64,000 nucleotides of DNA from an uncultured Flavobacteriaceae bacterium (GCA_963832345.1 CAWHTW010000005.1:148512-212511); one strand, 5' to 3'; shown: positions 3,892 through 42,940, numbered from the stretch's first letter. Notes: generated from the sequence alone by a model not told the origin. Made by a program: numbers and translations.

Positions 3892-5268
3892 TCAGGTGCG
3901 GTAAACATTTTTATCCAAAAAAGAGTTTCTGAATTTTCCATCTGGATCGTATTGCTTCGCCAACTGAATAAAGTCGTCCATTTTCTCGTATCGGGAATGT
4001 AAAATTTCCGGCTTTAAGGTAAACATTTTGCCCCAATGCGGAAGCACTCCGAACGGCGAAAGTACTTCCTCTATTTGCGGAAGTATGTTTTGCACCTCTT
4101 CCCAATGTTGTTTCCATGTAAAGTGAAAAGCGATGCAATCCCTTTTGTAACAGGGACTCATCCAATATTCATCGGCCGAGATGGAACGCACCTCGGAAAT
4201 CATCAATTGTGGAAATATAGTATCCTTTAGACCTACCAATGCCATATAAGCATCTACCGCATCTTCCCTGCCCACAAAATATTCCGATTGTAGTTCTTCG
4301 CCGCTACTTGGGGTAAAGCCCATCTTAAAATGCGGCAGACGTTCATGCCATGGGCCCGCAACCCCCATTTGTTCCGTGCAGTTTTGGGCGGGCATTACGG
4401 TAATGGGATGTAGGTTTTTAGTCGCTGGGGATGCACCATAAAAAGCACCGAAATCCTTCAATTCTCTGTCCATTCTGCTTTTAATCCATACTTGGCTAAC
4501 GACATCGTTCTGATAATCGGTAAACAGGCTTACGCTGTACCCGCTGGACATGATTTCATCAAAATTTTTTTGTAGCGCACTTACCGGAAGGTTCTGGAAT
4601 AGGTCTTGCCGAACGTCGAATGTGTTTTCGATTTCAAGAGTCATCTGGGTTATGATTCCCAACGCCCCAAGACCGACGACCGCTCCGTAAAAATTCGGCT
4701 GATCTCTGTCCAATTTTACAATTTCGCCATTGGCGGTTACCAGTTCGATAGCCGTTACCGCACTGGGCAGGTTACCATTGGTCATTCCGGATCCATGGGT
4801 GGCCGTAGCACATGCACCCGCAATGGAAATATGGGGCAGAGAGGCCAAATTGTGAAGTGCATAGCCATTTTCTTGCAATGTCGGAGCCAGCTCGCCATAC
4901 CGTATTCCCGCTTCTACCGTCACGGTTTGGGCCTCTTCATCGATACCGATGACCTTGTCGAGGTTTTTGGTCGAGATTTGCTCCATGGGGCTGTCCGCAA
5001 TGTTATTGAAGCAATGTTTGGAGCCAAGGGCTTTGTGTTTTCCCGATTCTTTGACCAAAGCCTGAAGTTCTCCAATAGTTTTAGGTTCACGTAAATTTTC
5101 GGCCTTATACGTATAATTTCCCGCCCAATTTTTTCGGGCCTCGGCAAGAATCCCATCATCTGCCGTACCGGTTTCTGCCTTTGAGGAAGTTTTCGGTTTG
5201 CAATTTAGAAGACTTACTACACCTATGGCGATGGCGGGCGACATGGCAATAAAATTTCTTCGTTTCAT
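3892..5268 (-). CDS. Secreted FAD-linked oxidoreductase of the D-arabinono-1,4-lactone oxidase / gulonolactone oxidase family
   Basis: N-terminal Tat/Sec-like signal (MKRRNFIAMSPAIAIGVVS). PCMH-type FAD-binding domain followed by an ALO-type C-terminal domain. 458 aa. Confidence 0.7.
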   Translation of the reverse strand: MKRRNFIAMSPAIAIGVVSLLNCKPKTSSKAETGTADDGILAEARKNWAGNYTYKAENLREPKTIGELQALVKESGKHKALGSKHCFNNIADSPMEQISTKNLDKVIGIDEEAQTVTVEAGIRYGELAPTLQENGYALHNLASLPHISIAGACATATHGSGMTNGNLPSAVTAIELVTANGEIVKLDRDQPNFYGAVVGLGALGIITQMTLEIENTFDVRQDLFQNLPVSALQKNFDEIMSSGYSVSLFTDYQNDVVSQVWIKSRMDRELKDFGAFYGASPATKNLHPITVMPAQNCTEQMGVAGPWHERLPHFKMGFTPSSGEELQSEYFVGREDAVDAYMALVGLKDTIFPQLMISEVRSISADEYWMSPCYKRDCIAFHFTWKQHWEEVQNILPQIEEVLSPFGVLPHWGKMFTLKPEILHSRYEKMDDFIQLAKQYDPDGKFRNSFLDKNVYRT

Positions 5269-6040
5269 ATTTTTGGATTTACCGGAGGATTAATACATTT
5301 TCAAAACATACCCTAAAATACGGACTATTGTTTTCTAGTTGATGGAATATCACTAAAAATCCCATAAAATTAGTGTATTGAGAACCAATTTCTTAGAAGT
5401 CGATTCTTTATGCTCCGCAGCAAATTCCGGGTCTATAGCTACACCGAGACCAGGGCCTCTTGGCCCTTTATACCGTCCCTGATTCGCAGATCCGATGTAG
5501 TGCATTTCAAGTGAATTTCATCGTCGAACCCTTTGAACTCATGATACAGAGCGTCATTGGGCAAGATTGATACGAAGTGCATCCTATACAAATACCCCAG
5601 ACCTGATCCGGAAAAATGAGGAAACATGAAACCTTATTACTGAAAATGGCTTTATTTTCAAGCTGTCAAATTGAATTGTCTTCTCATAGTCCTTTAATTC
5701 CATCCCTTAATTCATTCATTCTTTTAATCAGAGGATTATTAAGCCAAGAAACCGATGATATACCTTCAAAATTTTTCTTAACTTCGCGCTTCGTTTCGCG
5801 AAAGCGGTCATACGAAGTTTACAAAACTGTTAATATCACAGTTTTTAAGGTAGTATCTTAATCGAAAAATAAGGGGGAAGGTTCCGTCCTTTATTTTTCG
5901 TCTCGCTATCATGTAAAGGGCAATATTTATTTTTTTTGAAATAAAATGCGAATAATTTGGACTTAAAACCTGAATTAATAGGGAGTCTTACATGAATTGA
6001 TGTGAAATTATAGTTGATCGATAATCGATAAGATAACTCA

Positions 6041-6117
<77 letters not shown>

Positions 6118-6127
6118 AGTAAACACA

Positions 6128-6156
6128 GGGCCTCCAAGCGATTGGAGGCCTTTTTG
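6128..6156 (+). terminator. Rho-independent terminator just after the tRNA
   Basis: Perfect hairpin GGCCTCCAA-gcga-TTGGAGGCC followed by TTTTT. Confidence 0.65.
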
Positions 6157-6394
6157 ATTTCCATCCGTACAACATACGTACAACATTTGAGGTTTTTAAT
6201 TTTAATACAGGAAACGGTTTTACCCTTTCAGATAATGGTAGTAAGAAGAGGGAAGGCTACACTTTGGCCCGGCGCAGGTTGGTTAACTTTCATCCGGCGC
6301 GCTATGCTCACTTTAGTCCGGCGGGGGTGGTATACTATGGCCGTTGTTTGCAGGGATACGTCGGTAATTGATAATTTTGGTAGAAATCCCAGAC

Positions 6395-7579
6395 TTAAGC
6401 CTTTTTTAAAATAAGATTTTTAAATTTTTTGTAGTAGTAAGTTCTATTGAAGTAACCATTTTCAATAATGAACAGGAATCCGAGATAACTAAAATTTAAA
6501 TTTACCTTAAAGAGAAGAAATACTAAAACCCCCAAAATTGTTACTGCCAAAAAATAACTGACTCCGATTATTATTACATTCAAAATTGGGAATTTTAGCA
6601 ATACCGTCGTTAATTGATCTTTTGGGGTTTTTATGACAAATGAAACTGCTAAAAAAGTTACCCACAAAAACAAAATAAGTAAAAATGAAATTTGATTATA
6701 TCCCTGTTTTAAGGATAGGTATGTGTTAAGTAGAATCAGTGGACCCTGTACATCGCCATAGATACCTTGATGGGTATCCGAATAAAAATCCCCGATGACA
6801 ATCAACCTATCTTTATAGTACCCCGGTAGGTTTTCTTTAGATACTGAAAGTAATTCACCTATATCCATGACAGGGTACTCCTTGGTTTCAAACAAATGAT
6901 AGTTTCTTATGCCCAAATAAGGTATAAAATCATTTGGCATAATTTTATTATCTAAAATATTCCACAACCAGAAACTTTTTGATTTACCACTGTGAATTTC
7001 CCCATACATTTTTAGCGGCAAAGATTTAGTATCTGTTTCTGTATTAAAGAGTCTATATTTATAAAATATACCACCAGCTTTATCAATAGATCCTAATCCA
7101 AAATTCAAATCTTTAAAAATCTTTGGAATTAAATCAAATGAATCCCTTTGGGGTAGTATATATCTTGGTTTTTCAATGAGAATTTCTTTTAGTTCTGCGT
7201 CATCCGGGGATGCATGGTCAAAAAAAATGTCACATAAAATGTACTTATAGCCGATACTGTCCTCAATTCTCTCAAAAAGGGTCTTTAATTTATTTCGGTC
7301 AGTAATTGGGACATTTCCATAGGGAAATCCACTTTCATCAAGATTATCAACAAGTATATTTTCAAAACTTGTATTGATTAATAATAAATCATTAAAACTA
7401 GGGACCTCGTTTCTTCCTATAACCTTCTCCTTAATAAAGTGGCTGAAAAGAAGAACATTGGCGTCAATGGCTGGAAAAAGATAAATGGTCTGTGAGATAA
7501 ACAAAAAAATTAAACTTAATGTAGCATTGATTGTACAAAACCGTATCATCTTTCTATTTCGTTCAAGAAATCTTTTCAT
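6395..7579 (-). CDS. CHASE2-like extracytoplasmic sensor domain membrane protein. No output domain
   Basis: One N-terminal TM segment, a ~300-aa extracytoplasmic domain, then three C-terminal TM helices. This is the CHASE2 topology. It overlaps the upstream gene by 4 bp. The region is very AT-rich. Confidence 0.55.
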   Translation of the reverse strand: MKRFLERNRKMIRFCTINATLSLIFLFISQTIYLFPAIDANVLLFSHFIKEKVIGRNEVPSFNDLLLINTSFENILVDNLDESGFPYGNVPITDRNKLKTLFERIEDSIGYKYILCDIFFDHASPDDAELKEILIEKPRYILPQRDSFDLIPKIFKDLNFGLGSIDKAGGIFYKYRLFNTETDTKSLPLKMYGEIHSGKSKSFWLWNILDNKIMPNDFIPYLGIRNYHLFETKEYPVMDIGELLSVSKENLPGYYKDRLIVIGDFYSDTHQGIYGDVQGPLILLNTYLSLKQGYNQISFLLILFLWVTFLAVSFVIKTPKDQLTTVLLKFPILNVIIIGVSYFLAVTILGVLVFLLFKVNLNFSYLGFLFIIENGYFNRTYYYKKFKNLILKKA

Positions 7580-8337
7580 AATAGGTCAAGGACATCAATT
7601 CCATAAATAGTAACTAAATAATCGGAAATGAGATTTGAAGTTTCTTCCTCTGAAATCCCTTTTTTAACTAAATAATTCCTGTAAACTTTAATTTCTTCCT
7701 TTATTTCTGAAATTTGCTTAGGAATGAAAACCATCATTTTGATATTTCTTGATTTGTTGTCGATACCATCGTAATAATAAATCTGACATCCTTCAATGGT
7801 CTTAGCAGATCTATTTGATATATCAATTACGGAATTATCTATTTCTAAAAAACCTTTAGCATCGATTGGCAATCTTCGCTCCATAACATCCCCTTTATTT
7901 GATGTTAGTTTTAGGAAATAGTGGCTCGCTTTAGAGTTTAGTCTTTTAGATATTTTAATTTTTTTAGAATTTAACAATTTACTATTCTCAAAAAAAAGAT
8001 AGGTATAATTGGCGATTTCACCCCTTGTACCTGTATAATCCTTAATTGGGAGTAGATTTTCCTTTAAGAAATAAAAAAACTCCCCGTTCGGTATGCGTTC
8101 TTGCCTCAAAGGGGACAAAACCAATCTTCCTCTAAAGTTGCTCAATAATATTGAGATATCATCCTCAGAAGAAAATCTAAAATTTGGATTACCTTTAAAT
8201 TCATCACCAATTTTTAAATAGGCTTTGGCAGTATCTATTTTTATATTTCCTCTGACATGAAGTACATGGAATATTTCCTGAGAAAATCCATTAAGGTACA
8301 GTATAGATGTACTGAGAAGAAGAATGACATTTTTCAT
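7576..8337 (-). CDS. Secreted protein, possibly FecR-like. First gene of the operon with the CHASE2 gene
   Basis: Signal peptide MKNVILLLSTSILYLNGFSQ. The segment HVRGNIKIDTAKAYLKIGDEF...DISILLSNFRGRLVL has a FecR-domain-like periodicity. It is translationally coupled to the CHASE2 gene. Confidence 0.4.
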   Translation of the reverse strand: MKNVILLLSTSILYLNGFSQEIFHVLHVRGNIKIDTAKAYLKIGDEFKGNPNFRFSSEDDISILLSNFRGRLVLSPLRQERIPNGEFFYFLKENLLPIKDYTGTRGEIANYTYLFFENSKLLNSKKIKISKRLNSKASHYFLKLTSNKGDVMERRLPIDAKGFLEIDNSVIDISNRSAKTIEGCQIYYYDGIDNKSRNIKMMVFIPKQISEIKEEIKVYRNYLVKKGISEEETSNLISDYLVTIYGIDVLDLL

Positions 8338-8348
8338 GATTAACGTCC

Positions 8349-11300
8349 TTGATTGTAAAAATATTAAAATTTAAAGATATGTTAAAAAAACAAAGATTCT
8401 ATAAAGACTCCGGACAATTGAAAACATGGTTAATAGCTATTTGCATCATAACAGCTTTATATAGTATTTCGAATCATAAACTATATGCGCAGGAAAGAAT
8501 TTTAATCGAAGCCCAAAAGGGCATAGATATCGCGAAGACCTCCTTTGAAAATGGACAACACAATAAAGCCATTTTGTTAGTTCAAGGTGTCAAGAAAAAT
8601 TTGATACAAGAAGGTAATTTAAATCAATTCAATCATTTCGAGACCTACTATCAAGCTACAAATCTTGAAATGTCAATAAATCAAAAAATTAATCAACCTC
8701 TAAAAAATTATAACCTTTTCAAATCTCAAAGCGTTGAATTGAATAAAATGATGCGCTCTGACCATATCAGATGGTATTTCTTTGATTCTAGGCTAAACGA
8801 ACTTTTGTTCTTGTTTAAGTCACGTAATACAACTATCACCATCATAACTGATTTGGAAATACAACTTAAAAAATTGAAGTTTTTTTTGGATTCCCTTTCT
8901 TTTGAGAACAATAGCATTAAGACCAATATACACGATTTGATTGTTACGTATGAAAGAATTTATGCCATTACCGAAGATATTTTGAACAAAAAGGTCGTAA
9001 AGTCAAGAGATTATGAAAGCCTATTGGAAGATAAAAAAATGATAGAAGAGAATCTTGTCATTAAAGTCTTTAATAAAAAGGAAATAGACCTTTTGGGATT
9101 GGGGTATGATTTTACCGGTTACAAGAGGTGGTCAAATTATACAGGAATTTTCCAAGATGTTAGTCTTGCGAAGAATGAAATTGAACGTGTGAAAACAATC
9201 ATTAGTCATGGATTTTACAATCGGGCAATTGAAAAATCCAATTTATTGTTGAAAGAATTCAATAGCTATTATCATGAGAACAACTTACCTCAAACCTCAT
9301 TGCTTTTCAAGGAGGCTATATACCAGAATCTTTCAAAAGCCCACCTAAAATTAAAGAATTTTGAGGATTCCAAATACTTTTTAGATAGCGCAAAAAATAT
9401 TTACAACAATATAGATTACAGCTACAAAGAAGGTTCTAGAAGGTTTAAGTATGAAAATCTTTACATAGATTATTACTTATTTGAAAAGGAATACAATGAG
9501 GCCATCAAATATGCCTTGTTAAAGTTAAATTTTAGTCCGTATTACAAGGGGGAAGCTGGTCAAATAGCAACCCTTCATTATGCTGCAGGAAATTATGATG
9601 AGGCTATTCAGTACCACAAAAAAATTTCGGAATGGAATAAGAATGAGCTTAAAAAATATGGGGGTTTTTCTGAGAATAAGACTTTGGACTGGTTTATTGG
9701 CAATGCCTTCTTAGCCAAAGGCGAAATAAAAGATGCAGAGGCTTATTTAAATCCTATTTTTATCGAGTTGACCAATAAAGATAAACTAGATTCTGAAGAA
9801 GAGGATTTACTTCGGGTTTGTTTGATTGATTTAGCTATAATTAATTCAATAAACCGAAATTGGGAAACCGCTGACATTTTGATGTCCACGTATTTAAGAA
9901 ATTATTCCACACCCATATTTCAACATTTGCTTTCGGCGACAGAGAACGATAGAGATGACATTCTGCTCGAAGATTATTACAATCCAGATGTAATATTCAA
10001 TTATCTCTCAAATAGAAATTCTAATACTGGGGAAGTCGTTGGTGGGGGCTACAATGTCGCGCTACTATCAAAAATGCTATTGTTCGAAGTCTCCCGAAAA
10101 ATTCCTCAGATAGTTTCCAGAAGCAAGAACAAAGTTATGAGGGAATTGAATTCTAGATTACTTGAGATAAAACATGCTCTAAAATCTGTTGATGTGAAGG
10201 AAAAGGATTCGTTAATGGACTACGCTAGATATTATGAATGGGAGATCATAAATACATGGAAAGACCCAATTTTAAGTGGGTTGAGCGGGTCACTGGTAAA
10301 TTGGAAAAATATTCAGGATAAATTGAATTATGGCGAGGCTGCTATCGAATTTATCACCTTTAGGCCATATGGATTTGAGAATAATAATAAAGAGGTAATA
10401 TATGGAGCTTTCATAATTGGAAAGGGCTATGAATGGCCAAAGTTTATTACTTTATTTTCAGAAAACGAATTGAATCTCTTATTAAAACCTTTCAAGGACA
10501 CCAAGCAATCAGATAAAGAAAAAATTCAAGAGATTTATGAAGCTAAGGGCGAAAAAATTTATGAGCTGATATGGGAACCTTTAGAGAAGTACCTAATAAA
10601 CATTCCGAAAATATATTATTCTCCTGCAGGTATTTTGAATAGCATTGCCTTTTCAGCTTTAAAAAATAAAGAGGGAAAAGCAATTTCAGATAGACATTCC
10701 CTCGTTCGATTAGTGAGTACAAAAAACATCTCTGATTCTGAAAATTTTGCCAAACTTTCTGGAGTCGTTTTATTTGGTGATATAGCTTACAACGCCGCAA
10801 ATAGATCCGGCTTTAAAGAGGTTTCTGAAGAAACTTCGAGAGGCTCTTCATTTAATAGTTTGCCGGGGACAAAGAAAGAAATTGATGAATTGAACAAGAT
10901 TCTCAAATCAAACAATATTGAAAGCCACCAATATGATCAAATGTTCGCCAGCGAGGAAAATTTATTTAAAATATCCAATGATAATTCAATAGATGCCATA
11001 CACATCGCAACTCATGCATTCTATATACCACCTTTGGAAGAAGACGAACTTCTTTTCACACCAATGATTGGTTGGTCAATTTTTAAGGAAGAAGATGACC
11101 CCATGAATCGTTCCGGACTTGCGTTGTCGGGAGCAAATCAATTTTGGTTAAGTGGAAATCCAATAAATCAAAATGGATATGATGGCATATTGACAGCAAA
11201 TGAAATCTCAAATTTGAACTTAAAGGGTATTAAATTGGTCGTACTTTCAGCTTGTGAGACTGCATTGGGAGATTCCAGGGATAACGAAGGGGTTTTTGGT

Positions 11301-11516
11301 TTGCAAAGGGGATTGAAAATGGCTGGTGTCGACAATCTTTTATTATCTCTTTGGAAAGTTGATGATCAGGTAACCCAAGAATTCATGGTAGAATTTTATA
11401 AAAAGTTGATATCCAATGACTATTCAATTGAGTCAGCATTCTACAAAACACAAAGTCAAATCAAGAATAAGTATCCAGACCCATATTATTGGGCGGCATT
11501 TGTGCTAATTAGATAA
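8349..11516 (+). CDS. TPR-repeat protein with a C-terminal CHAT (caspase-like) peptidase domain. A likely signal peptide suggests the true start is at M11 (8379)
   Basis: 1055 aa. N-terminal h-region WLIAICIITALYSISNHKLYAQ-E. Many TPR-like Y/F/A-rich repeats. The C-terminus has the CHAT catalytic dyad motifs IHIATHAFY (His) and LVVLSACETALGD (Cys). It is divergent from the CHASE2 operon. Confidence 0.85.
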   Translation: MIVKILKFKDMLKKQRFYKDSGQLKTWLIAICIITALYSISNHKLYAQERILIEAQKGIDIAKTSFENGQHNKAILLVQGVKKNLIQEGNLNQFNHFETYYQATNLEMSINQKINQPLKNYNLFKSQSVELNKMMRSDHIRWYFFDSRLNELLFLFKSRNTTITIITDLEIQLKKLKFFLDSLSFENNSIKTNIHDLIVTYERIYAITEDILNKKVVKSRDYESLLEDKKMIEENLVIKVFNKKEIDLLGLGYDFTGYKRWSNYTGIFQDVSLAKNEIERVKTIISHGFYNRAIEKSNLLLKEFNSYYHENNLPQTSLLFKEAIYQNLSKAHLKLKNFEDSKYFLDSAKNIYNNIDYSYKEGSRRFKYENLYIDYYLFEKEYNEAIKYALLKLNFSPYYKGEAGQIATLHYAAGNYDEAIQYHKKISEWNKNELKKYGGFSENKTLDWFIGNAFLAKGEIKDAEAYLNPIFIELTNKDKLDSEEEDLLRVCLIDLAIINSINRNWETADILMSTYLRNYSTPIFQHLLSATENDRDDILLEDYYNPDVIFNYLSNRNSNTGEVVGGGYNVALLSKMLLFEVSRKIPQIVSRSKNKVMRELNSRLLEIKHALKSVDVKEKDSLMDYARYYEWEIINTWKDPILSGLSGSLVNWKNIQDKLNYGEAAIEFITFRPYGFENNNKEVIYGAFIIGKGYEWPKFITLFSENELNLLLKPFKDTKQSDKEKIQEIYEAKGEKIYELIWEPLEKYLINIPKIYYSPAGILNSIAFSALKNKEGKAISDRHSLVRLVSTKNISDSENFAKLSGVVLFGDIAYNAANRSGFKEVSEETSRGSSFNSLPGTKKEIDELNKILKSNNIESHQYDQMFASEENLFKISNDNSIDAIHIATHAFYIPPLEEDELLFTPMIGWSIFKEEDDPMNRSGLALSGANQFWLSGNPINQNGYDGILTANEISNLNLKGIKLVVLSACETALGDSRDNEGVFGLQRGLKMAGVDNLLLSLWKVDDQVTQEFMVEFYKKLISNDYSIESAFYKTQSQIKNKYPDPYYWAAFVLIR

Positions 11517-12337
11517 AAGAAAATACAAATCAATTTGTTAACAATTTCTTATAAAAAAGAATTACATATACAATGCAATTTTCCAACAAATAAATTTCTC
11601 AAAATTGATTAATTGGCACCTACTCTTTAGATTTAAATAACCGTCCCTCACTTCCTATTCGAGAGTAATTTAACATTTCACAGGCTTAGGTTTTAACCTA
11701 CCGTGCAATCCGTCCTGAAAGCTTCTTTTTTTGAAGGCAAAAAACAACATTCATTCTTGGAAAACGGCAAAAAGGTCGCCCATTTTTAAATGGTCAAAAA
11801 TGAGTATTACAAAAACTTAAAAGTCAAGGTACAAACTAAAATTAACTGCATTCACGAGCTGCTTGGGGCAACCCAGGCCCTGGGAACCCGACCAAAATCC
11901 AGCTGAAAATAACCCTTCTTTGCCTTCCCCCTATCCACAAAAAGCGCCCGATAGGGCAATAGCGTTAGGGATAGGAGCGGCATTGGCCGCCGAGTGCGGT
12001 TAGGTTTCGTTTTCGTGGAAAGCGACAACGGAGCTCTTTCACGGATTACGAAACCTTACGGTACAAAAGGCCAATAAAGTGGATAGCCCGGCCAACGCCC
12101 AAAAACTAGAATTTAATATTTTGATTAGCGACCCTCTTTTTCAATGATGATGATTTCTTCCTAAAAAGGTACTTCTCCCAACTTTGGCTTAACATCATAT
12201 TTCTCATCCAGGTATTCGTTGATTTCGATCAATCTTTTTTGTGCCAGCTCGAGCCGTTCGGTCTTTTCAAAATGTAGCTCCAGTACTTTCCTTTTGAGTA
12301 TTTCATGAGTGAACGGGTTAAGGAATAGTATCGCACT

Positions 12338-13606
12338 CTATTTTCTCATTTGGTATGCGGTTTTTATTTTATGGTTACCTTTCACTTGCTTTTCAAAACG
12401 TCCAAAATTTTTACTTTCAGCGTATTTCTCCTGTATATATCGCAATACTTCGGGATTTAGCGGTCTAAAATGCAGTTCATCGGATGGTTTTCTTGTCTCG
12501 GCAAAGTGCCATTTGCCGGTTTTGTAGTGTTTTTTCAGAAAGGCCTGCCTATTTTGGTTTACTAATTGTACGGCATCTTTCTCAACCACGAAGTTCTTAT
12601 TCATGATGACCTCCTTGCAGAGATAGTATTTCATTTTTATAGGTAGTTTAGAGGTTTTGATGATACTGTCATAGGTGTTCCACTCTATCCAACTCTGGGA
12701 GGATTCATGATGCTTGCGACCAACATGCAAAATGCCATCTTTAACACCGAGCAACAGATCGAACTTAAGTTTTGCAATCAGCTCGATTTGGCTGTCCAAG
12801 AAGAGTCGTTTGAATTCGTCGACCGTGAAATAATAGGTCTCGGCCTTTGGCACCACCACAAGAAAAGATCGGAAGGACAAATAATGGACGTTCGCTTCCG
12901 ATAGCGTGGCGACAATTCTCCCCTTCGGAAGATGCAACCGGAACTGCTTTCCTATAAAAAGTTCGGGATTTTCCAATACTCCTCCATCCGGCTTTAAAAT
13001 GGCGTTTTTAAAATATTTGTTGCCGTGGAAAGCCTCCGAAATACAATGGTTGTAAGTTCCCTGTATTCGTGCCAGGTCCGCTACAGTCATCAAGGGTATA
13101 TCGTTTCCGAGAAAAGTATGTTCCAATATCAGGTTATCCGATTGGTCGGGATGTATCCGAACCATATATTGCGTGAATTCCCCGGTGTCGAGGTCCCTCC
13201 ATTTCAGGATATTCTCATATTCGCTATATGCTGCTTTGAAAACTTTGGTTTCGGGCTCGTATCCAATTTGGACGTCGGCACGGGACAGCTCCCCTTCCAA
13301 AATCTTGATACGCCCTATCGGTTTAACTTTGGCATCGCTGTCCATCAAGCGCTGTTTCAGCTTTTGCCGGGCCAACCGGTCTTTAAGGTCGTTGTCGATG
13401 TAGCCGTCCTTGGCCAATTTCAGTTTTTTCAGATATCCGAGCCGTTTTATGTCGGCCACCTCCCCGGGGTCCACTTGGCCGTAATCCATGATCCCGAATT
13501 CCCTGAACTCGTCGTCCGCCGCTTTATCGTAGATATTTTTTAAGGTATGCACCAAGCTATTGGCCCTCCTTAGCGAGTTGCGGAAGCTTTTTTTCTTCTG
13601 TTCCAT
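12338..13606 (-). CDS. Hypothetical protein (ICE-associated). The start is chosen at the second Met to limit overlap with the upstream gene. The C-terminus probably continues in another frame to about 12165
   Basis: 473-aa ORF with no motifs I can assign and no tyrosine or serine recombinase signatures. Downstream of the stop a 48-codon stop-free frame reads ...ILKRKVLELHFEKTERLELAQKRLIEINEYLDEKYDVKPKLGEVPF. Confidence 0.5.
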   Translation of the reverse strand: MEQKKKSFRNSLRRANSLVHTLKNIYDKAADDEFREFGIMDYGQVDPGEVADIKRLGYLKKLKLAKDGYIDNDLKDRLARQKLKQRLMDSDAKVKPIGRIKILEGELSRADVQIGYEPETKVFKAAYSEYENILKWRDLDTGEFTQYMVRIHPDQSDNLILEHTFLGNDIPLMTVADLARIQGTYNHCISEAFHGNKYFKNAILKPDGGVLENPELFIGKQFRLHLPKGRIVATLSEANVHYLSFRSFLVVVPKAETYYFTVDEFKRLFLDSQIELIAKLKFDLLLGVKDGILHVGRKHHESSQSWIEWNTYDSIIKTSKLPIKMKYYLCKEVIMNKNFVVEKDAVQLVNQNRQAFLKKHYKTGKWHFAETRKPSDELHFRPLNPEVLRYIQEKYAESKNFGRFEKQVKGNHKIKTAYQMRK

Positions 13607-18100: not shown

Positions 18101-18349
18101 ATGGAGCCACTACCGGAAGAATTACAGGACAACCAATACTATATCGAATTGTTGGATGCCTTGATCGAGGAGAACGATATGGAATTGAAACACCGCTTGC
18201 AAAAAGCGGATACCTATGGGCAGTTCGTCAATGAACAGGCCGGAATGATAATGGACAGGACCATTGAACATATCCGGGAGAACGAATCATCGTTTTCAAT
18301 AGCCTCATCCATAGTATTAGATGAATGGAAAAAACGCATGTTTTCCTGA
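18101..18349 (+). CDS. Small acidic hypothetical protein upstream of the coupling protein
   Basis: 82-aa ORF. Its end overlaps the start of the T4CP gene. Confidence 0.35.
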   Translation: MEPLPEELQDNQYYIELLDALIEENDMELKHRLQKADTYGQFVNEQAGMIMDRTIEHIRENESSFSIASSIVLDEWKKRMFS

Positions 18350-20885
18350 TTACAGACCAATACTCCTTAACCCGCTCAAAAAAATAATGGACGATAGAAA
18401 GATGGCCTTTTCCGCTATGCTGATTTCCACCGCGCTCTTTATGGCCATCGGTTTTATGGACTATTATGCATTGGTCCGCTACCACCAGTGGGACAATACC
18501 TTAACACAAATAGTTTACCGATTTTTTACCAAGTTCGAACTCTTAAGACGGCCCTATTACGGCAAGCTACTCCTTCTGATGCTGATTACCGGATCGGTAT
18601 TGCTCTATAACCCTAAAAAGAAGGAAGGAAAATCGTTGGGCCAAGGCCTGTTCCTCTATATCATGGGTAGTTCTTTATTATTTCTCCCGGACGTTTTCAA
18701 CTATACGACTGTAATTACGGCATGGAGTTCCCTAGGCATCTATTTTCTAGGATTCGTTTTTACGTTATCCGGTGCCGTGCATTTATTTCAGGTGATGAAC
18801 TTTACCAATGCGGCAACGAAAGATCCCTTTAACGACGAGAACGAAACCTTCCTGCAAACCGAGAAACGTATCGAAACCCCCTACTCCGTAAACATCCCCT
18901 ATGAATACCGGTACAAAGGGAAAATCCGTCAAGGCTGGATCAATTTTGTAAACCTGTTTAGGGCCCTGTTGATTGTCGGAACGCCTGGGAGCGGAAAATC
19001 GTTTGCTCTTATAGAGGAAATCATCGAACAGTTGACCAACAAACTGTTTACGCTATTGGTCTATGATTTCAAGTTCGATACGCTGAGCAAGATTACCTAT
19101 AACTATTGGCTACGAAAAAAGGAACAGCTTAAACACAATCCTGAAAAACTGGCACTGTTGCCCGAGTTCTATGTAATCTGTTTTGACAACGTGGAAAAAT
19201 CCCACCGCTGTAATCCTATCAACCCTTATTTGTTGAAAAGCCAAACGGACGCTTCCGATGCCGCCACCATCATCATGAAAAACCTGAACCGGGAATGGAT
19301 CAAGCGCAACGATTTCTTCTCCAAAAGTGCCATTAGCTTTGTGTCCGGCCTCATTTGGTACCTCAAGAAAAAATCGGAGGAAAAGGGCATCAATATCTGT
19401 ACGCTGCCCCACGTCATTATCCTGTCCACCGTAAATATCGAATACCTGTTGCAGATCATGTTGGAGGATATCGAGGTACGGAGTCTGATGATTCCCTTTA
19501 AGGATGCCCTGGACCGGGAGGCCGTGCAGCAATTGGCCGGGCAAACGGCAAGTGCCCAAATTTCTCTGTCGATGTTGGCCAACAAGGAAATTTTCTACAT
19601 CATGACCGGCAACGATTTCCAGTTGGACCTGAACAACTCCAAAAAACCGAAAATCCTTTGTATCCAGAACAATCCGGACCGTTCCGAGATCTATTCCGCC
19701 CCAATCGGCCTGTACATCAATAAAATTCTACAGGTGGTCAACAAACCGGGCGGGCGGCCTTTAGGTCTCATTTTGGACGAGCTCCCCACCATCTTTATCA
19801 TGGGCCTGAGAAAGATCATCGATACCGGAAGGTCACATTATGTAGCGACCGTTTTGGGCATACAGAGCATTTCCCAATTGATCGCCGACTACGGAAAGGA
19901 ATTGGCGGAGGTAATCTTCGACAATTGCTCCAACGTCTTTAGCGGGGCCGCCAAAGGGGAGACCGCAAGGCGCATCAGCGAGATTTTCGGAAAGATCCAT
20001 CAGGAAAAACACGCCAAGACCATTTCAAGGAACGATACTACCACCAATATCAGCACCGCCATGTTGGAAATCCTGCCCAAAAGCAAGATTACCGGCATGT
20101 CAACTGGGCATTTCGGGGGAATCGTCGCGGACACCTTTGAAAACCAGATAAAGAACAAACTCTGTTATGGATTGGTAAAGCCCAATATGGAATCGAAAAA
20201 GATCCAGGGCAAATTCGACTTCCCGATCATCAACGATTTTAAACTTCCCGACCACGATGAACAGATGTCAGAAAAAATAAAATCGTTAGGTGAACTGGAT
20301 TTTTATGACAGAATAGCCCAACTGGATTGCGGCCAGGTCGATTACATCGACTTTTACAACGGCTATATCAATGATTTTGCAGGGAAACATTATGGGGAAC
20401 AGGAGGAAAGGGACGGTTTCATGGCCCTGGTCAGGGAACTGAAACTTTTTGACCATCTCCAGATTATCAAGGAAATTAAAAATGGAGGGAAACCCAATCA
20501 AGACCTGGAACATTTTGTGTCCGGACTGGTGGATCGGATGCTCGTTCAACAGGAAATCGACCGGATATTGAACGATAACTTTCTCGATGTCATAAATGAT
20601 GTCGACACACTGGTAAGGGACGAATATTATGAATTGACCGGCGAACACCTTGAATCCGCCATTTTTGATAAGGACAAGGTGGGCGACGAGGTGGACGAAG
20701 CTATCGACCAGGAGCGCGAGCTTTCCTATCATTACGTACACCAGTTGGAAGGCGACGGTTCCGAAGAAAAAGCTACTTTTGAAAGAAACGATACCATCGG
20801 GGACGAGCGTTTATTTGTTAATGACAACGACGATGACAATACCTACTACTCCTCTTATCCCGTAGAAGAAATACAGCACAAATGA
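18321..20885 (+). CDS. Type IV coupling protein (VirD4/TraD-like conjugative ATPase) with a long acidic C-terminal extension
   Basis: Two N-terminal TM helices. Walker A LIVGTPGSGKSFAL and Walker B LGLILDELPT. 854 aa. A later Met (MDDRK, about 18387) is a plausible true start. Confidence 0.85.
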   Translation: MNGKNACFPDYRPILLNPLKKIMDDRKMAFSAMLISTALFMAIGFMDYYALVRYHQWDNTLTQIVYRFFTKFELLRRPYYGKLLLLMLITGSVLLYNPKKKEGKSLGQGLFLYIMGSSLLFLPDVFNYTTVITAWSSLGIYFLGFVFTLSGAVHLFQVMNFTNAATKDPFNDENETFLQTEKRIETPYSVNIPYEYRYKGKIRQGWINFVNLFRALLIVGTPGSGKSFALIEEIIEQLTNKLFTLLVYDFKFDTLSKITYNYWLRKKEQLKHNPEKLALLPEFYVICFDNVEKSHRCNPINPYLLKSQTDASDAATIIMKNLNREWIKRNDFFSKSAISFVSGLIWYLKKKSEEKGINICTLPHVIILSTVNIEYLLQIMLEDIEVRSLMIPFKDALDREAVQQLAGQTASAQISLSMLANKEIFYIMTGNDFQLDLNNSKKPKILCIQNNPDRSEIYSAPIGLYINKILQVVNKPGGRPLGLILDELPTIFIMGLRKIIDTGRSHYVATVLGIQSISQLIADYGKELAEVIFDNCSNVFSGAAKGETARRISEIFGKIHQEKHAKTISRNDTTTNISTAMLEILPKSKITGMSTGHFGGIVADTFENQIKNKLCYGLVKPNMESKKIQGKFDFPIINDFKLPDHDEQMSEKIKSLGELDFYDRIAQLDCGQVDYIDFYNGYINDFAGKHYGEQEERDGFMALVRELKLFDHLQIIKEIKNGGKPNQDLEHFVSGLVDRMLVQQEIDRILNDNFLDVINDVDTLVRDEYYELTGEHLESAIFDKDKVGDEVDEAIDQERELSYHYVHQLEGDGSEEKATFERNDTIGDERLFVNDNDDDNTYYSSYPVEEIQHK

Positions 20886-21347: not shown

Positions 21348-22337
21348 ATGGAAATGCAATCGCAATTTGAACATATTATCCAATTGATCGAAAAGGCGAA
21401 ACAACGTGCCTTTCAAAAAGTAAATACCGAAATTATCGATCTTTATTGGCAAATCGGCGGGTTTCTTCACCAAAAGGTCGATGCGGCCAATTGGGGAAAG
21501 TCGGTCGTCAATGAACTGGCCGATTATATAAAGACCGTTCAGCCCAACACCAAGGGGTTTTCGTCCCAAAATCTATGGCGGATGAAGCAATTTTACGAAA
21601 CCTATAACGGGAACAAAAAACTCTCGGCACTGCTGAGAGAAATTCCTTGGTCGCACAATATGGTCATAGTATCGGGTGCTAAAAGCGATGGGGAGAAAGA
21701 GTTTTATATGAAATTGGTAAAAAAGGAAAGGTTGTCGCTTAGGGAGTTGGAACGCCAACTGGACAGCTCTTATTATGAGCGTGTAATGCTGGGCAAGGCA
21801 AAACTCTCGGCACTGCCGAGAGAATTCCCACAGGACATTACCAGCATCTTCAAGGATACCTATGTTCTGGAAATGTTGCAGTTGCCCCAGACGCATTCCG
21901 AAAATGAGCTCAAAGGCAAAATAACGCAGAACATAAGCAAGTTTCTATTGGAGTTCGGAAGGGATTTTGCCTTTATGGGCGAAGAATACCCATTACAGGT
22001 AGGAAATCAGGATTTCGCCATCGATCTGCTGTTTTATCATAGGACCCTTCAATGTATGCTGGCCGTGGAACTCAAAATAGAGCGGTTCAAGCCCGAGTTT
22101 TTGGGACAGCTCAATTTTTATTTGGAGGCATTGGACAGGGATGTGAAAACCAAAAATGAAAATCCTAGTATCGGCATCTTGCTCTGCAAGGGAAAGGATG
22201 ATACCGTGGTAGAATACGCCCTTAGCCGCAGTTTGTCGCCTACCTTGGTGGCGGACTACAAAACCCAATTGCCGGACAAGCGCGTGTTGAAAGAGAAATG
22301 GCAAGAGATACTAGATCAATTGGATGAAACCGATTGA
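21348..22337 (+). CDS. DUF1016 / YhcG-like PD-(D/E)XK nuclease family protein
   Basis: Family-typical N-terminus (FEHIIQLIEKAKQRAFQKVNTEIIDLYWQIG) and a C-terminal PD-ExK block IDLLFYHRTLQCMLAVELKI. Confidence 0.75.
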   Translation: MEMQSQFEHIIQLIEKAKQRAFQKVNTEIIDLYWQIGGFLHQKVDAANWGKSVVNELADYIKTVQPNTKGFSSQNLWRMKQFYETYNGNKKLSALLREIPWSHNMVIVSGAKSDGEKEFYMKLVKKERLSLRELERQLDSSYYERVMLGKAKLSALPREFPQDITSIFKDTYVLEMLQLPQTHSENELKGKITQNISKFLLEFGRDFAFMGEEYPLQVGNQDFAIDLLFYHRTLQCMLAVELKIERFKPEFLGQLNFYLEALDRDVKTKNENPSIGILLCKGKDDTVVEYALSRSLSPTLVADYKTQLPDKRVLKEKWQEILDQLDETD

Positions 22338-22617
22338 GGGAAAATGCGATATATTTCAATAGGTCTTACTATAGTCGCAACATTTCATTTGGAATAGAAG
22401 AAACGCCCACGCCCTTATTTTTTTTATTTACTTCTAATTTTAAATCTTTTATTTGATATCCAATACGTTTTAAATCTTTGTAAAAGGTGCGTTTTGTAAA
22501 GAGTTCAACATTAATACTCCATACTTCAGAATGTAATTTATATTTTATTTACGATAGGGCCTAGATTGTTTTTTTTGAGGAAAGCGAATAATTTTATTTT
22601 TAGAGTCCTCACACACA

Positions 22618-23949
22618 TTAACAAGGATAATCATTTTCTACCATTTCAATTAACTTCTCGGATGGTGTCAATCTATATCCTTTCAATAATTGAGAAGCTA
22701 CTCTATAGACAAGTTCTACATTTACCATATTACCTAAAACACGAAACGAGGCAGATTTTGTTTTCGGCAATTTAATGCTATCAGGAAGTGATTGAGCCTT
22801 ACATCCTTCCTCCGGGAGAATATATCTCATGTATTTTCCGATAATTGGTACTTGTGTAGATACCGTAACCAATGATGGCAAATAATTATTTTTTTTAACT
22901 CTAACCCCCGACCCCCTAAACTGAATCAGTTTATCGGTAAATAGTCTCTCGCCATTTGGGCAGTTCCATTCAAATTTTTTCCAGCTTTCCACTTTAAATT
23001 TTCGAATTTTCCTCAGTGTACCTAAACTAATATAATCCTTGTTAACCTTGTAAAAATTCCGATTGTTGTTGATATATCTCTGCTTCCATGATGGAGGAAG
23101 ACCTAATTGAGTTTTCACGTAATTAGGCAAATTTTCACGAACTTCTTCTAAACTATTGCAATTCTTCAAAGGATATCCGTAAGCCCCTTTATGCTTTTGC
23201 CATTCAGAAAGAGATAGTGAATTCCATTTTACATCTACTGGATAATTTGCACCAAACTCCATAGACCATAAAGGTCTATATGGCTCCGTTCCCGCAGGAA
23301 GTTCATTGATGAATTCACCCCAAGTTTGCAGCACTTCTATTTTCTCCCTTTCTAAATTTGAAGTGGTTTCTTCCTTAGATATTATACTAGTTACGGAATT
23401 GACATATTTTTCCTCCTTTACCCATTCAATGTTTTTTATATCATCACGATTTAAACTGCCGACAACGAAAATTCGCTCTCTATGTTGAGGAATATTTATA
23501 TAATGGGGGGAAAGAATTCTTTTATCAAAAAAATATCCCAGGTCATCAAGTTCTTTCGAAATATAATCCCACGTATGACCAGAATCATGAGTAACTAAGT
23601 TCCTAACATTCTCTAAGATGAAAAATTTTGGTTTATGATAAGATAAAATTTTTAAAATTTCATCAAATAACTTACCCCTTGCTTCTTTCATTCCGTTTTG
23701 ATTCCCAGCCTTAGAGAACGTTTGGCACGGAAATCCTGCACATAGTATATCGTGTTTAGGTATTTTTTTAATATCAATTTTGGTAATATCACCATGACAT
23801 TGAAGGTCATGATTTTCTTGATAGAGGAGTCTTAGTTCATTACTCAACTCTGATGCAAACACACATTGGTGTCCAAGTTTTTCAAGCGCAATATGAAAAG
23901 CACCAATTCCTGCAAAGAGATCAATAAATTTTAAATTTCCCCCTTCCAT
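22618..23949 (-). CDS. DNA (cytosine-5)-methyltransferase
   Basis: C5-MTase motifs I (IDLFAGIGAF), IV (GFPCQTFSKAG), VI (ILENV), VIII (QHRERIFVVG) and X (VLGNMVNVELV) are all present. 443 aa. Confidence 0.9.
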   Translation of the reverse strand: MEGGNLKFIDLFAGIGAFHIALEKLGHQCVFASELSNELRLLYQENHDLQCHGDITKIDIKKIPKHDILCAGFPCQTFSKAGNQNGMKEARGKLFDEILKILSYHKPKFFILENVRNLVTHDSGHTWDYISKELDDLGYFFDKRILSPHYINIPQHRERIFVVGSLNRDDIKNIEWVKEEKYVNSVTSIISKEETTSNLEREKIEVLQTWGEFINELPAGTEPYRPLWSMEFGANYPVDVKWNSLSLSEWQKHKGAYGYPLKNCNSLEEVRENLPNYVKTQLGLPPSWKQRYINNNRNFYKVNKDYISLGTLRKIRKFKVESWKKFEWNCPNGERLFTDKLIQFRGSGVRVKKNNYLPSLVTVSTQVPIIGKYMRYILPEEGCKAQSLPDSIKLPKTKSASFRVLGNMVNVELVYRVASQLLKGYRLTPSEKLIEMVENDYPC

Positions 23950-24789: not shown

Positions 24790-24796
24790 ACCCGAT

Positions 24797-28808: not shown

Positions 28809-29173
28809 GGTGGATACGGATTTTTTGGTAATGGATTAATTTTTCACTTCGTCAGAAGTAGTCATTTTAAGGCACTTAAAAGATAACTTGCTATCCGCCT
28901 GCGGATAAATATAAACAATATACACGTATCATATCTATCTAATAATCAAAATTTTAAGTTAGTTTACCACATGAAAACAGATGAAAACAAATGCCAATTA
29001 TAAACTCCTGAACGCCTCTATAAAATACACGAAAACGAAGGTCAAGAAGTAAAGGGTTTTAAGTTTTAAGGGTTTATTTCGTTGCATCCGAAGTTGAATT
29101 CCAAGAACTTTTATACAGTTTTTTTATTGATTGGTTCGGCACCAAAACAATTGTGGCAAGTGGACAAATAAAT

Positions 29174-42342: not shown

Positions 42343-42379
42343 ACTTTATTATATTCAAAGAATTAGTTTAACCAAATCC

Positions 42380-42912: not shown

Positions 42913-42940
42913 AGTTGGCAAGATGCCAAAATGCTAGTTG

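What the first reader, a model, noticed from the sequence alone, without database searches (positions are those of the whole stretch)
6395..11516. AT-rich triad: secreted FecR-like protein, CHASE2 sensor, and signal-peptide-bearing TPR-CHAT (caspase-like) protease
Three genes form a compact module. A two-gene operon (7576-8337 secreted protein, 6395-7579 CHASE2-topology membrane protein, overlapping by 4 bp) is transcribed divergently from a 1055-aa TPR protein whose C-terminus carries an intact CHAT His/Cys dyad (IHIATHA ... LSACET). The TPR-CHAT N-terminus (KTWLIAICIITALYSISNHKLYAQ) looks like a cleavable signal peptide. If so, all three components face the envelope or periplasm. That would be unusual for CHAT proteases, which are usually discussed as cytoplasmic effectors (e.g. 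TPR-CHAT Csx29 of type III-E CRISPR systems). The module is far more AT-rich than its surroundings and sits directly beside a tRNA at an ICE edge. This location is typical of defence or conflict cargo. CHASE2 proteins with no cytoplasmic output domain, paired with a protease, suggest an uncharacterised envelope sensing and proteolysis system. I recall FecR/CHASE2/CHAT neighbourhoods from cyanobacterial annotations, but no function is known
Basis: partly seen in the sequence, partly recalled or inferred. Interest (0 to 1): 0.8.

Follow-up and report, generated by a model that had tools for sequence, protein, structure and literature searches.

The report
Exported caspase-like protease with CHASE2 partner
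A foreign, AT-rich three-gene cassette on a conjugative element encodes a caspase-like protease, a membrane CHASE2 protein with no output domain and an unannotated partner protein, all apparently facing the periplasm, and the same combination recurs in many Bacteroidota and Ignavibacteria without ever having been described.

Summary
The three genes are real and sit where stated. The 1045-aa protein has a strong CHAT domain (Pfam E=1e-51), and its His/Cys dyad is invariant in 9 homologues. The 394-aa protein belongs to a stand-alone CHASE2 subfamily with 1+3 TM helices and a roughly 15-aa cytoplasmic tail. The 253-aa protein is not detectably FecR: no member hit Pfam FecR, hhalign against E. 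coli FecR gave 0.2% probability, and no FecR fold match appeared. It founds an unannotated family ("X") with about 1000 cluster representatives. All TPR-CHAT homologues and X carry a signal peptide followed by Gln, the Bacteroidetes Q-rule, so the protease is exported.

Of 28 assessable loci, 22 pair X with the stand-alone CHASE2. Twenty-five add an exported protease: TPR-CHAT, Peptidase_C14 with repeats (sometimes plus a papain-like C1), or once trypsin plus TPR. Bacteroidota copies ride on mobile elements beside restriction-modification, Abi and Septu-like genes. X has an invariant Arg/Lys in a disordered inter-domain loop, a candidate cleavage site.

The best reading is an extracytoplasmic proteolytic surveillance or conflict module. 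That function is inferred, not shown. No known defence model or paper matches it.

The parts
6041..6117 (+). tRNA-Arg (anticodon TCT). It is the left landmark of the AT-rich island.
   Evidence: ARAGORN; Rfam tRNA at 71 bits. A terminator-like hairpin follows at 6127-6152.
6395..7579 (-). Stand-alone CHASE2-family membrane protein, 394 aa. TM1 covers residues 14-38 (nt 7466-7540). The periplasmic alpha/beta domain covers residues 39-296 (nt 6692-7465). Three further TM helices cover residues 297-380 (nt 6440-6691). The cytoplasmic tail is about 14 aa and Lys-rich. There is no output domain.
   Evidence: Pfam CHASE2 E=2.3e-4, below the gathering cut-off. 77 homologues, most carrying PF05226. 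Hydropathy. AF2 model with pLDDT 88.8. No solved relative.
7576..8337 (-). Protein X, 253 aa, member of an unannotated family. It has a signal peptide (residues 1-19, nt 8281-8337, cleavage GFS|QE), two beta-sandwich domains (about residues 22-97 and 112-208) and a C-terminal three-helix region (209-252). It is translationally coupled to the CHASE2 gene through an ATGA overlap.
   Evidence: No Pfam, NCBIfam or PADLOC hit. 1023 cluster representatives at E<=1e-3. AF2 model with pLDDT 80. Only generic Ig-like fold matches.
8023..8025 (-). Arg105 of X, in the motif [ST]-[RK]-[GSA], within a disordered inter-domain loop. It is a candidate P1 site for the partner protease (inference).
   Evidence: The residue is R or K in 47/47 diverse family members and in all 25 locus-derived X proteins. 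pLDDT is below 50 at residues 100-108.
8338..8378 (.). Very short divergent intergenic region: 41 bp to ATG 8379, or 80 bp to TTG 8418. The promoters must overlap the neighbouring coding sequences.
   Evidence: Sequence. Homologous loci have spacers of 45-284 bp.
8379..11516 (+). Exported TPR-CHAT cysteine protease, 1045 aa. The signal peptide covers residues 1-37 (nt 8379-8489), with Gln38 at +1.
   Evidence: Exact 1045-aa product in public gene calls. Signal peptide plus Gln in 9/9 homologues. Q-rule (PMC5837995).
9456..9665 (+). TPR-like repeats (residues 360-429) within a helical N-terminal region of about 680 aa.
   Evidence: Match to consensus TPR structures, E=1.2e-4. Pfam TPR_19/10/12 are sub-threshold. 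Homologues carry confident TPR hits.
10542..11510 (+). CHAT (caspase-fold) domain. The catalytic His879 is at nt 11013-11015 and Cys959 at nt 11253-11255.
   Evidence: Pfam PF12770 E=1.2e-51, 176 bits against a cut-off of 24. Dyad invariant in 9 homologues. Coordinates verified.

Best explanation
This is a horizontally acquired, entirely extracytoplasmic three-part module.

Shown or strongly supported:
1. A Sec-exported TPR-CHAT protease with an intact His/Cys dyad.
2. An inner-membrane CHASE2-family protein whose only large domain is periplasmic and which has no cytoplasmic output.
3. An exported two-beta-sandwich protein of a new family (X), translationally coupled to the CHASE2 gene.
4. X plus stand-alone CHASE2 forms a constant core across Bacteroidota and Ignavibacteria.
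5. That core is joined to an interchangeable exported protease fused or paired with a repeat or binding domain: TPR-CHAT, WD40-, Sel1- or WG-Peptidase_C14 with or without a papain-like C1, or trypsin plus TPR.

Inferred mechanism:
- The repeat domain of the protease recognises a periplasmic cue, such as invader-derived material or envelope damage.
- The activated protease cuts X at its invariant [ST]-[RK]|[GSA] linker.
- The processed X acts on the CHASE2 ectodomain.
- The four-helix membrane part of the CHASE2 protein delivers the output at the membrane (permeabilisation or another membrane-level change), because it has no kinase or cyclase.

Given its carriage on mobile elements next to restriction-modification, Abi and Septu-like genes, the most likely role is a conflict or defence function: against phage, conjation or interbacterial attack.
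For: - CHAT domain and dyad.
- CHASE2 family and topology.
- Signal peptide followed by Gln in every TPR-CHAT homologue (9/9), in X, and in the alternative C14, C1 and WD40-C14 partners. The Q-rule is established for Bacteroidetes (PMC5837995).
- Conserved neighbourhood: 25 of 28 assessable loci have an exported protease next to the stand-alone CHASE2, and X was detected in 22 of 28.
- ATGA or near-zero spacing between the X and CHASE2 genes recurs.
- The invariant basic residue lies in a low-confidence loop of X. By general knowledge, metacaspases, orthocaspases, gingipain R, separase and trypsins cut after basic residues.
- Mobile and defence context: the ICE in the window carries PDC-S02, MTase_II and PD-Lambda-5_A-like cargo of similar low GC. 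Related loci have type I RM plus a PtuA-like gene (L005, L006), Abi_2 and AbiH (L025), and integrases or resolvase (L002, L004, L005, L007, L025).
- Precedents for the two links: caspase-CHASE2 fusions (PMC3501461, PMC8195603) and an exported accessory protein with a CHASE2 kinase (PMC5192318).
Against: - No experiment exists, and there is no match to any PADLOC model.
- Three X-CHASE2 pairs have no protease within 8 kb and sit among ordinary chromosomal genes (L014/L034, L027, L028). The Ignavibacteria loci are not on obvious mobile elements. So the core pair may have a physiological role.
- Signal peptides were judged by inspection and hydropathy, not by SignalP.
- The cleavage-site idea rests only on conservation plus predicted disorder. 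The basic residue is also conserved where no protease is adjacent.
- Nothing shows that the CHASE2 membrane part can act as an effector.
- The specificity of this CHAT domain is unknown. By general knowledge, Csx29 does not cut after a basic residue.
Confidence: 0.4

Rival explanations
1. The module is a physiological envelope signalling or maturation system, not a defence system. X plus stand-alone CHASE2 would be a periplasmic sensing or scaffolding pair that controls exported proteases. These proteases would process the cell's own surface or periplasmic proteins, by analogy with the caspase-fold gingipain/PorU enzymes of Bacteroidota. Roles could include surface remodelling, gliding, aggregation or biofilm formation. 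Its presence on mobile elements would be incidental cargo.
For: - Protease-less X-CHASE2 pairs occur in housekeeping contexts (L027, L028).
- Ignavibacteria loci are chromosomal and sit next to T9SS-tailed BNR and GH81 proteins.
- The analogous LysM-FecR plus CHASE2 kinase operon regulates biofilm (PMC5192318).
- There is no PADLOC hit.
Against: - The distribution is patchy, the composition is strongly foreign (GC3 0.26-0.34), and the module sits inside integrase-bounded or conjugative elements beside RM, Abi and Septu-like genes.
- Wholesale swapping of protease class around a constant core is, by general knowledge, more typical of conflict systems.
Confidence: 0.3
2. The module is an offensive or nutritional secreted-protease system. 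The repeat-bearing CHAT and C14 proteases would be released to attack competitors, prey or host proteins. X and CHASE2 would serve as a membrane-bound regulator or as an immunity or chaperone pair.
For: All proteases carry signal peptides and binding repeats (TPR, WD40, Sel1, WG, CarboxypepD_reg). Several neighbouring genes in Ignavibacteria have T9SS tails.
Against: The TPR-CHAT and C14 proteins themselves lack a Por_Secre_tail or any other outer-membrane export signal, so they are likelier to be periplasmic. The tight coupling to an inner-membrane protein argues for action at the cell's own envelope.
Confidence: 0.12
3. The module is a classical outside-in CHASE2 system. The N-terminal hydrophobic segment of TPR-CHAT would not be a signal peptide, and the protease would be cytoplasmic, as in the known caspase-CHASE2 fusion proteins. 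CHASE2/X would sense outside and activate it inside.
For: In the described fusions the caspase domain precedes TM1 and is predicted to be cytoplasmic (PMC3501461, PMC8195603). SignalP was not run.
Against: - All 9 homologues keep a short N-terminal segment of basic residues, a hydrophobic stretch and a small residue at -1 followed by Gln at +1, as do the alternative C14, C1 and WD40-C14 partners.
- Even an uncleaved N-in anchor would place the CHAT domain outside.
- The CHASE2 protein has only about a 14-aa cytoplasmic tail with which to contact a cytoplasmic partner.
Confidence: 0.05
4. The adjacency is fortuitous. The CHAT gene and the X-CHASE2 operon would be unrelated cargo genes that happen to be neighbours.
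For: They are divergently transcribed and not in one operon in the window.
Against: The same divergent arrangement occurs in 8 distinct loci with X identity down to 25%. A co-directional arrangement occurs in Ignavibacteria. Protease adjacency holds in 25 of 28 loci.
Confidence: 0.02

Closest known systems
Caspase/metacaspase-CHASE2 fusion proteins (Trichodesmium metacaspase; EACC2-caspase-CHASE2 of Kaur et al. 2021)
   Same: A caspase-fold protease is functionally linked to a CHASE2 ectodomain flanked by 1+3 TM helices. They are proposed to have apoptosis-like or immunity roles (PMC3501461, PMC2853523, PMC8195603).
   Different: In the fusions the protease is fused N-terminally and predicted to be cytoplasmic. 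Here it is a separate, signal-peptide-bearing protein on the same side of the membrane as CHASE2. The CHASE2 protein has no other domain, and a third constant component (X) is present.
Exported LysM-FecR protein plus CHASE2 histidine kinase operons (Burkholderia 'BiofilmReg', P. aeruginosa PA4035/4036-type)
   Same: A small exported accessory protein is encoded immediately upstream of, and overlapping or abutting, a CHASE2 membrane protein (PMC5192318).
   Different: The accessory protein there is FecR/LysM. X shows no FecR signal. There the CHASE2 protein is a kinase with a response regulator. Here there is no cytoplasmic output, and a protease replaces the two-component output.
TPR-CHAT Csx29 (Craspase) of type III-E CRISPR-Cas
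   Same: A TPR region followed by a CHAT domain with a His/Cys dyad. The protease acts as the effector of a defence system.
   Different: The window has no CRISPR array and no cas genes. There is no sequence similarity to any solved CHAT protein at E<=1. Csx29 is cytoplasmic and RNA-activated, whereas this protein carries a signal peptide.
Bacterial gasdermin plus caspase-like/CHAT protease systems
   Same: A repeat-bearing caspase-fold protease sits next to a beta-rich protein of about 250 aa that could be activated by cleavage, with output at the membrane.
Toll/Spaetzle-type extracellular protease cascades (functional analogy only)
   Same: Extracytoplasmic proteases with recognition domains, a possible pro-ligand with a basic cleavage site, and a membrane receptor.
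   Different: There is no homology. The downstream step is unknown, because the receptor-like protein has no intracellular domain.

Membership tests
CHAT (PF12770, caspase-hemoglobinase fold) | Significant match to the family profile | tested here: met
   E=1.2e-51, 176.3 bits against a gathering score of 24. The match covers profile positions 2-287 of 289.
CHAT (PF12770, caspase-hemoglobinase fold) | Catalytic His and Cys after consecutive beta-strands | tested here: met
   H879 (HIATHA) and C959 (LSACET) are invariant in 9 homologues of 24-58% identity.
TPR repeats | Repeat profile matches above threshold | tested here: inconclusive
   Pfam TPR_19/10/12 all fall below the gathering scores. 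Consensus-TPR structures match residues 360-429 at E=1.2e-4. Homologues in L023 and L004 carry TPR hits.
CHASE2 (PF05226) | Match to the family profile | tested here: inconclusive
   The window protein itself scores 21.2 bits, below the 26.3 cut-off, with E=2.3e-4. Most of its 77 homologues, down to 26% identity, carry precomputed PF05226 hits. L038 scores 29.4 bits.
CHASE2 (PF05226) | Topology: one N-terminal TM, an extracytoplasmic domain of about 250 aa, then three TM helices | tested here: met
   Hydropathy segments at residues 11-38, 297-315, 335-353 and 348-369. AF2 helices at 9-29, 299-317, 340-357 and 364-393, with pLDDT 88.8. Lys-rich N-terminus and tail.
CHASE2 receptors (kinase, cyclase or GGDEF output) | Cytoplasmic output domain after the last TM | tested here: not met
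   The protein ends about 14 residues after the last TM. The whole subfamily is 370-450 aa.
FecR (PF04773) | Match to the family profile or to a FecR protein | tested here: not met
   No FecR hit for the window protein (E<=1), for 25 members at E<=10 or for 47 members at E<=1. hhalign of the X profile against E. coli FecR gives 0.2% probability. This is a weak test because it used a single FecR sequence.
FecR (PF04773) | FecR-like fold | tested here: inconclusive
Sec/SPase I exported protein (Bacteroidetes Q-rule) | Basic n-region, hydrophobic h-region, small residue at -1 and Gln at +1 | tested here: met
   Cleavage sites read LYA|QE for CHAT and GFS|QE for X. The same pattern occurs in 9/9 CHAT homologues and in the C14, C1 and WD40-C14 partners. 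This was a heuristic assessment; SignalP was not available. The rule is from PMC5837995.
Type III-E CRISPR Craspase | Adjacent gRAMP/Cas7-11, a CRISPR array and similarity to Csx29 | tested here: not met
   No repeat array in 64 kb. Neighbouring genes are ICE and defence genes, not cas. No PDB CHAT hit at E<=1.
Catalogued anti-phage defence systems (PADLOC 2.0) | Match of any component to a system model | tested here: not met
   There is only a chance-level CARF hit (E=0.12) for the CHAT protein, and none for the other two.
ICE cargo at a tRNA attachment site | Conjugation genes contiguous with the cassette | tested here: met
   T4CP at 18321-20885, TraG at 30673-33234, TraJ, TraM, TraN, TraQ and MobB.
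ICE cargo at a tRNA attachment site | An integrase and a direct repeat of the tRNA 3' end marking the element ends | tested here: not met
   No integrase was found among the scanned ORFs. There is no second copy of the tRNA 3' end. Only chance-level 12-13-nt matches were found.

The most novel reading that the evidence does not exclude
Bacteroidota and Ignavibacteria would possess a previously unrecognised periplasmic immune or proteolytic signalling pathway, analogous in logic to Toll/Spaetzle. Exported repeat-bearing caspase-fold proteases would detect invader material in the periplasm and cleave the pro-protein X at its invariant basic linker. The product would then switch a stand-alone CHASE2 protein into a membrane-disrupting or membrane-signalling state. 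This would be the first caspase-like defence acting wholly outside the cytoplasm. It would also give the first ligand and function for a CHASE2 domain.
Probability: 0.15. Interest if true: 0.88.

Novelty: new variant of a known kind. Interest (0 to 1): 0.62.

Why it matters
- CHASE2 is a widespread sensor domain whose ligand has been unknown since it was defined in 2003.
- Caspase-fold proteases are central to recently discovered bacterial immunity (Craspase, gasdermin activation), but always from the cytoplasm.
- This work gives a recurrent, mobile module in which the protease, a new partner family of about 1000 clusters and an output-less CHASE2 protein all face the periplasm.
- It therefore offers a concrete, small and genetically tractable system. 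One can test what CHASE2 binds, whether caspase-like proteolysis operates in the bacterial envelope, and whether it protects against phage, conjugation or contact-dependent attack.
- The invariant [ST]-[RK]-[GSA] loop of X and the Cys959 dyad are immediate mutational targets.

Tried and rejected
- Genome scan with the 31-sequence CHASE2 alignment failed because it had no conserved stretch. It was repeated with 10 sequences.
- The exact-sequence look-up of the window's X protein was not on record.
- A PDB sequence search with the X profile gave only a chance coiled-coil hit, GCN4 at E=0.22. The CHASE2 profile gave none.
- The AFDB Foldseek library was unavailable.
- hhalign against E. coli FecR was negative.
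- Full-text searches for CHAT+CHASE2+FecR, CHASE2+phage defense, CHAT+signal peptide/periplasm and CHAT+two-partner secretion found no description of this module.
- Rfam found only the tRNA in 5200-12600. Sigma-70 promoter matches were below the shuffle expectation, and Bacteroidetes promoters are not covered by the scan.
- The search for att-like repeats of the tRNA end was negative.
- A lipoprotein reading was rejected. X has no Cys in its signal peptide, and the Cys in the CHAT h-region lacks a lipobox and is not conserved.
Full report
**1. What is in the sequence.**

The ORF scan finds 6395-7579(-) at 394 aa, 7576-8337(-) at 253 aa and 8349-11516(+) at 1055 aa.
- The first two genes overlap by ATGA: the stop TGA of the upstream gene overlaps the ATG of the downstream gene.
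- The 1055-aa length comes from a mechanical TTG start that lies only 11 bp from the divergent ATG. The exact 1045-aa product from ATG 8379 is what public gene calls hold.
- TTG 8418 would give a more canonical 24-aa leader. Every candidate start keeps the hydrophobic N-terminus.
- tRNA-Arg(TCT) lies at 6041-6117.
- The triad has GC 0.32 (GC3 0.26-0.34). The rest of the window has GC 0.42, the conjugation genes have GC3 0.47-0.62, and the genes left of the tRNA have GC3 0.47-0.55.
- To the right lie Bacteroidetes-type conjugation genes: T4CP, TraG, TraJ, TraM, TraN/DUF4138, TraQ and MobB.
- Left of the tRNA are lactate permease and FAD oxidases.
- No integrase and no second copy of the tRNA 3' end were found. 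'ICE cargo next to a tRNA' is therefore supported, but a defined ICE edge is not.

**2. Domain tests.**

- *CHAT.* This is unambiguous: PF12770 at E=1.2e-51. His879 (HIATHA) and Cys959 (LSACET) are invariant in nine homologues of 24-58% identity.
- *TPR.* The evidence is weak. Pfam hits fall below gathering scores, and consensus-TPR structures match residues 360-429 at E=1.2e-4. Homologues do have confident TPR hits.
- *CHASE2.* The 394-aa protein scores below Pfam's cut-off (21.2 bits against 26.3). It has 77 homologues of 370-450 aa, most carrying PF05226. Its topology is canonical: one TM, an ectodomain of about 258 aa, three TM helices, then only about 14 residues. It is a stand-alone CHASE2 protein with no output domain. 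No solved structure resembles it.
- *The 253-aa protein, 'X'.* It has no hit in Pfam, NCBIfam or PADLOC. None of 25 plus 47 family members hit FecR, even at permissive thresholds. hhalign against E. coli FecR gives 0.2% probability. Its AF2 model (pLDDT 80) shows a leader helix, two beta-sandwich domains and three C-terminal helices. The model matches only generic Ig-like folds. The 'FecR-like' label is therefore not supported.
- *Size of the X family.* X belongs to an unannotated family with 1023 cluster representatives at E<=1e-3 and 517 at E<=1e-10.

**3. Localisation.**

- The TPR-CHAT N-terminus has basic residues, a hydrophobic stretch of about 14 residues and ...LYA|QE. X has ...GFS|QE.
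- Every TPR-CHAT homologue examined has the same design with Gln at +1: ASS|QR, LIA|QN, AFS|QT, IFG|QN, LYS|QT, VFS|QN, IFS|QS, VHS|QT.
- The same holds for the alternative proteases found with this module: C14-WG ...SDA|QI, C1 ...ATA|QR, C14 ...SQA|QP, and WD40-C14 ...IFA|QN.
- A Gln exposed by signal peptidase I is the documented Bacteroidetes 'Q-rule' (PMC5837995, PMC10653852).
- There is no lipobox, and no T9SS C-terminal domain on the proteases.
- The most economical reading is that the protease, X and the CHASE2 ectodomain all reside in the periplasm. SignalP could not be run, so this is a heuristic conclusion, although a strongly conserved one.

**4. Conservation of the neighbourhood.**

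The divergent arrangement of TPR-CHAT, X and CHASE2 recurs in the following places:
- metagenome contigs L001, L002/3, L006/7 and L029;
- Catalinimonas sp. 4WD22 (L004/8);
- Maribacter sp. MAR_2009_72 (L005);
- a Flavobacteriaceae MAG and a TARA contig (L009/L030).

X is only 25-58% identical across these loci.

In Ignavibacteria the genes are co-directional. One form is CHAT, CHAT, WD40-C14, CHASE2, X (L010, L013). Another is X, CHAT, CHASE2, X (L023/L031).

More distant loci keep the CHASE2 protein, and usually X, but exchange the protease:
- Peptidase_C14 with WG, Sel1 or CarboxypepD_reg domains;
- often a papain-like C1/DUF4384 protein in addition (L016-L018, L021, L025, L038-L041, L044-L046);
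- WD40-C14 alone (L011, L033);
- once Trypsin_2 plus a separate TPR protein (L015/L036).

The count is 28 distinct assessable loci including the window:
- 25 have an exported protease next to the stand-alone CHASE2 gene, and 24 of those proteases are caspase-fold;
- 22 have X detectable by HMM;
- 3 have X-CHASE2 without a protease (L014/L034, L027, L028).

**5. Context.**

- Bacteroidota copies sit in mobile, defence-rich DNA.
  - L002, L005, L007 and L025 have integrases.
  - L004 has a resolvase and transposases.
  - L005 and L006 have type I RM.
  - L006 has a PtuA-like ATPase.
  - L025 has Abi_2 and AbiH.
  - L006 has a TraN fragment.
- The window's ICE carries a second AT-rich cargo block with PDC-S02, a type II C5 methylase and a PD-Lambda-5_A-like protein.
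- Ignavibacteria copies and the protease-less pairs lie among ordinary chromosomal genes.

**6. A candidate cleavage site.**

- Residue 105 of X is Arg or Lys in 47/47 diverse family members and in all 25 locus-derived X proteins. It lies in the motif [ST]-[RK]-[GSA] and is followed by a linker of variable length.
- This is the one long segment of the AF2 model with pLDDT below 50 (residues 100-108).
- By general knowledge, caspase-fold enzymes of the metacaspase, gingipain-R and separase kinds, and trypsins, cut after basic residues.
- I therefore infer that X is a substrate or pro-form of the partner protease. This is inference only. The residue is also conserved where no protease is adjacent.

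**7. Mechanism.**

Shown:
- an exported, dyad-intact TPR-CHAT protease;
- an output-less CHASE2 membrane protein;
- a translationally coupled exported partner;
- a conserved module with interchangeable proteases;
- a mobile and defence-rich context.

Inferred:
- the repeat domains sense a periplasmic cue;
- the protease cleaves X;
- processed X engages the CHASE2 ectodomain;
- the output is at the membrane, because there is no cytoplasmic domain.

I give 0.4 to this conflict or surveillance reading and 0.3 to a physiological role in envelope signalling or maturation. The smaller rivals are a secreted offensive protease, a cytoplasmic protease, and chance adjacency.

**8. Comparison with what is known.**

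- Caspase-CHASE2 fusions are described (PMC3501461, PMC2853523, PMC8195603), but there the caspase is cytoplasmic.
- Exported LysM-FecR proteins pair with CHASE2 kinases (PMC5192318), which is a positional analogue of X. X is not FecR, and there is no kinase here.
- The module is not Craspase. There is no CRISPR array or cas gene, and no similarity to solved CHAT proteins.
- It is not a gasdermin system.
- It is absent from PADLOC.
- Full-text searches found no description of it.
- From my own memory, CHAT domains fused to two-partner-secretion domains exist, so exported CHAT proteins are probably not unprecedented. I could not verify this.

**9. Verdict.**

The FecR label is wrong, and the defence function is plausible but untested. 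I rate it a new variant of the known caspase-CHASE2 association. It is notable for being wholly extracytoplasmic and for exposing a large unannotated partner family. Interest 0.62.

Noticed in passing
window 21348-25915: A second compositionally foreign cargo block sits on the same ICE. It contains a YhcG/PDC-S02 nuclease (21348-22337), a type II C5 cytosine methylase (22618-23949), a 279-aa unknown protein, and a GmrSD_N / PD-Lambda-5_A-like protein (24797-25915). The last three have GC3 0.28-0.32, like the triad.
   Followed up: partly
window 26132-28424: The Bacteroidetes MobB-type relaxase appears split. A 211-aa ORF matches the first half of the model, and it overlaps a 571-aa ORF with no family hit on the same strand. 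No integrase was found anywhere in the 64 kb. The ICE may be decayed or its ends may lie elsewhere.
   Followed up: partly
window 42116-43189, with related copies at 21617-21831: A family of short hairpin-containing repeats (core CTCGGCACAGCCGAG..., units up to 88 nt, 78-100% identical) is clustered just right of the conjugation genes. A related pair lies inside the YhcG gene region. They look like REP/MITE-type elements.
   Followed up: no
window 29167-29585: Two copies about 254 nt apart of a composite direct repeat (families D4, D6, D10; 92-96% identical) lie in the non-coding stretch between the relaxase and the tra operon. This may be the oriT or a regulatory region.
   Followed up: no
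window 6363-6374 and 39294-39305: An exact 12-nt match (GGTAATTGATAA) occurs between the tRNA-to-CHASE2 spacer and a point 72 bp after the last tra gene (TraQ). About one such match is expected by chance, so it is not evidence for att sites, but the positions are suggestive.
   Followed up: partly
window 11517-12337: An 820-bp stretch with no ORF of 60 aa or more lies downstream of the CHAT gene. It contains two terminator-like hairpins (11945-12003), and GC rises towards ICE values across it. It has no Rfam match.
   Followed up: partly
L015 9137-13291 (same as L036): A variant module: CHASE2, X, a 419-aa unknown protein, a Trypsin_2 serine peptidase and a separate 276-aa TPR protein. A serine protease plus TPR replaces the TPR-CHAT fusion.
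   Followed up: partly
L038 2711-4489, L040 876-2648: The CHASE2 proteins in these C14-associated loci are about 590 aa, roughly 180 aa longer than the rest. The extra region has no Pfam hit, and no separate X gene was detected there.
   Followed up: no
L010 10117-11811, L019 1030-2745, L015 6315-7613, L014 9970-12744: In Ignavibacteria the module is repeatedly flanked by T9SS-tailed (Por_Secre_tail) BNR/YCF48-like or GH81 proteins. This could be shared synteny or a functional link.
   Followed up: no
L016 7362-7997, L021 9017-9856: ORFs adjacent to CHASE2 have X-like N-termini: a signal peptide, Gln, and then a 'Y-K-[IV]...G' pattern. They fall below my X HMM threshold. The X family is probably broader than counted.
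   Followed up: no
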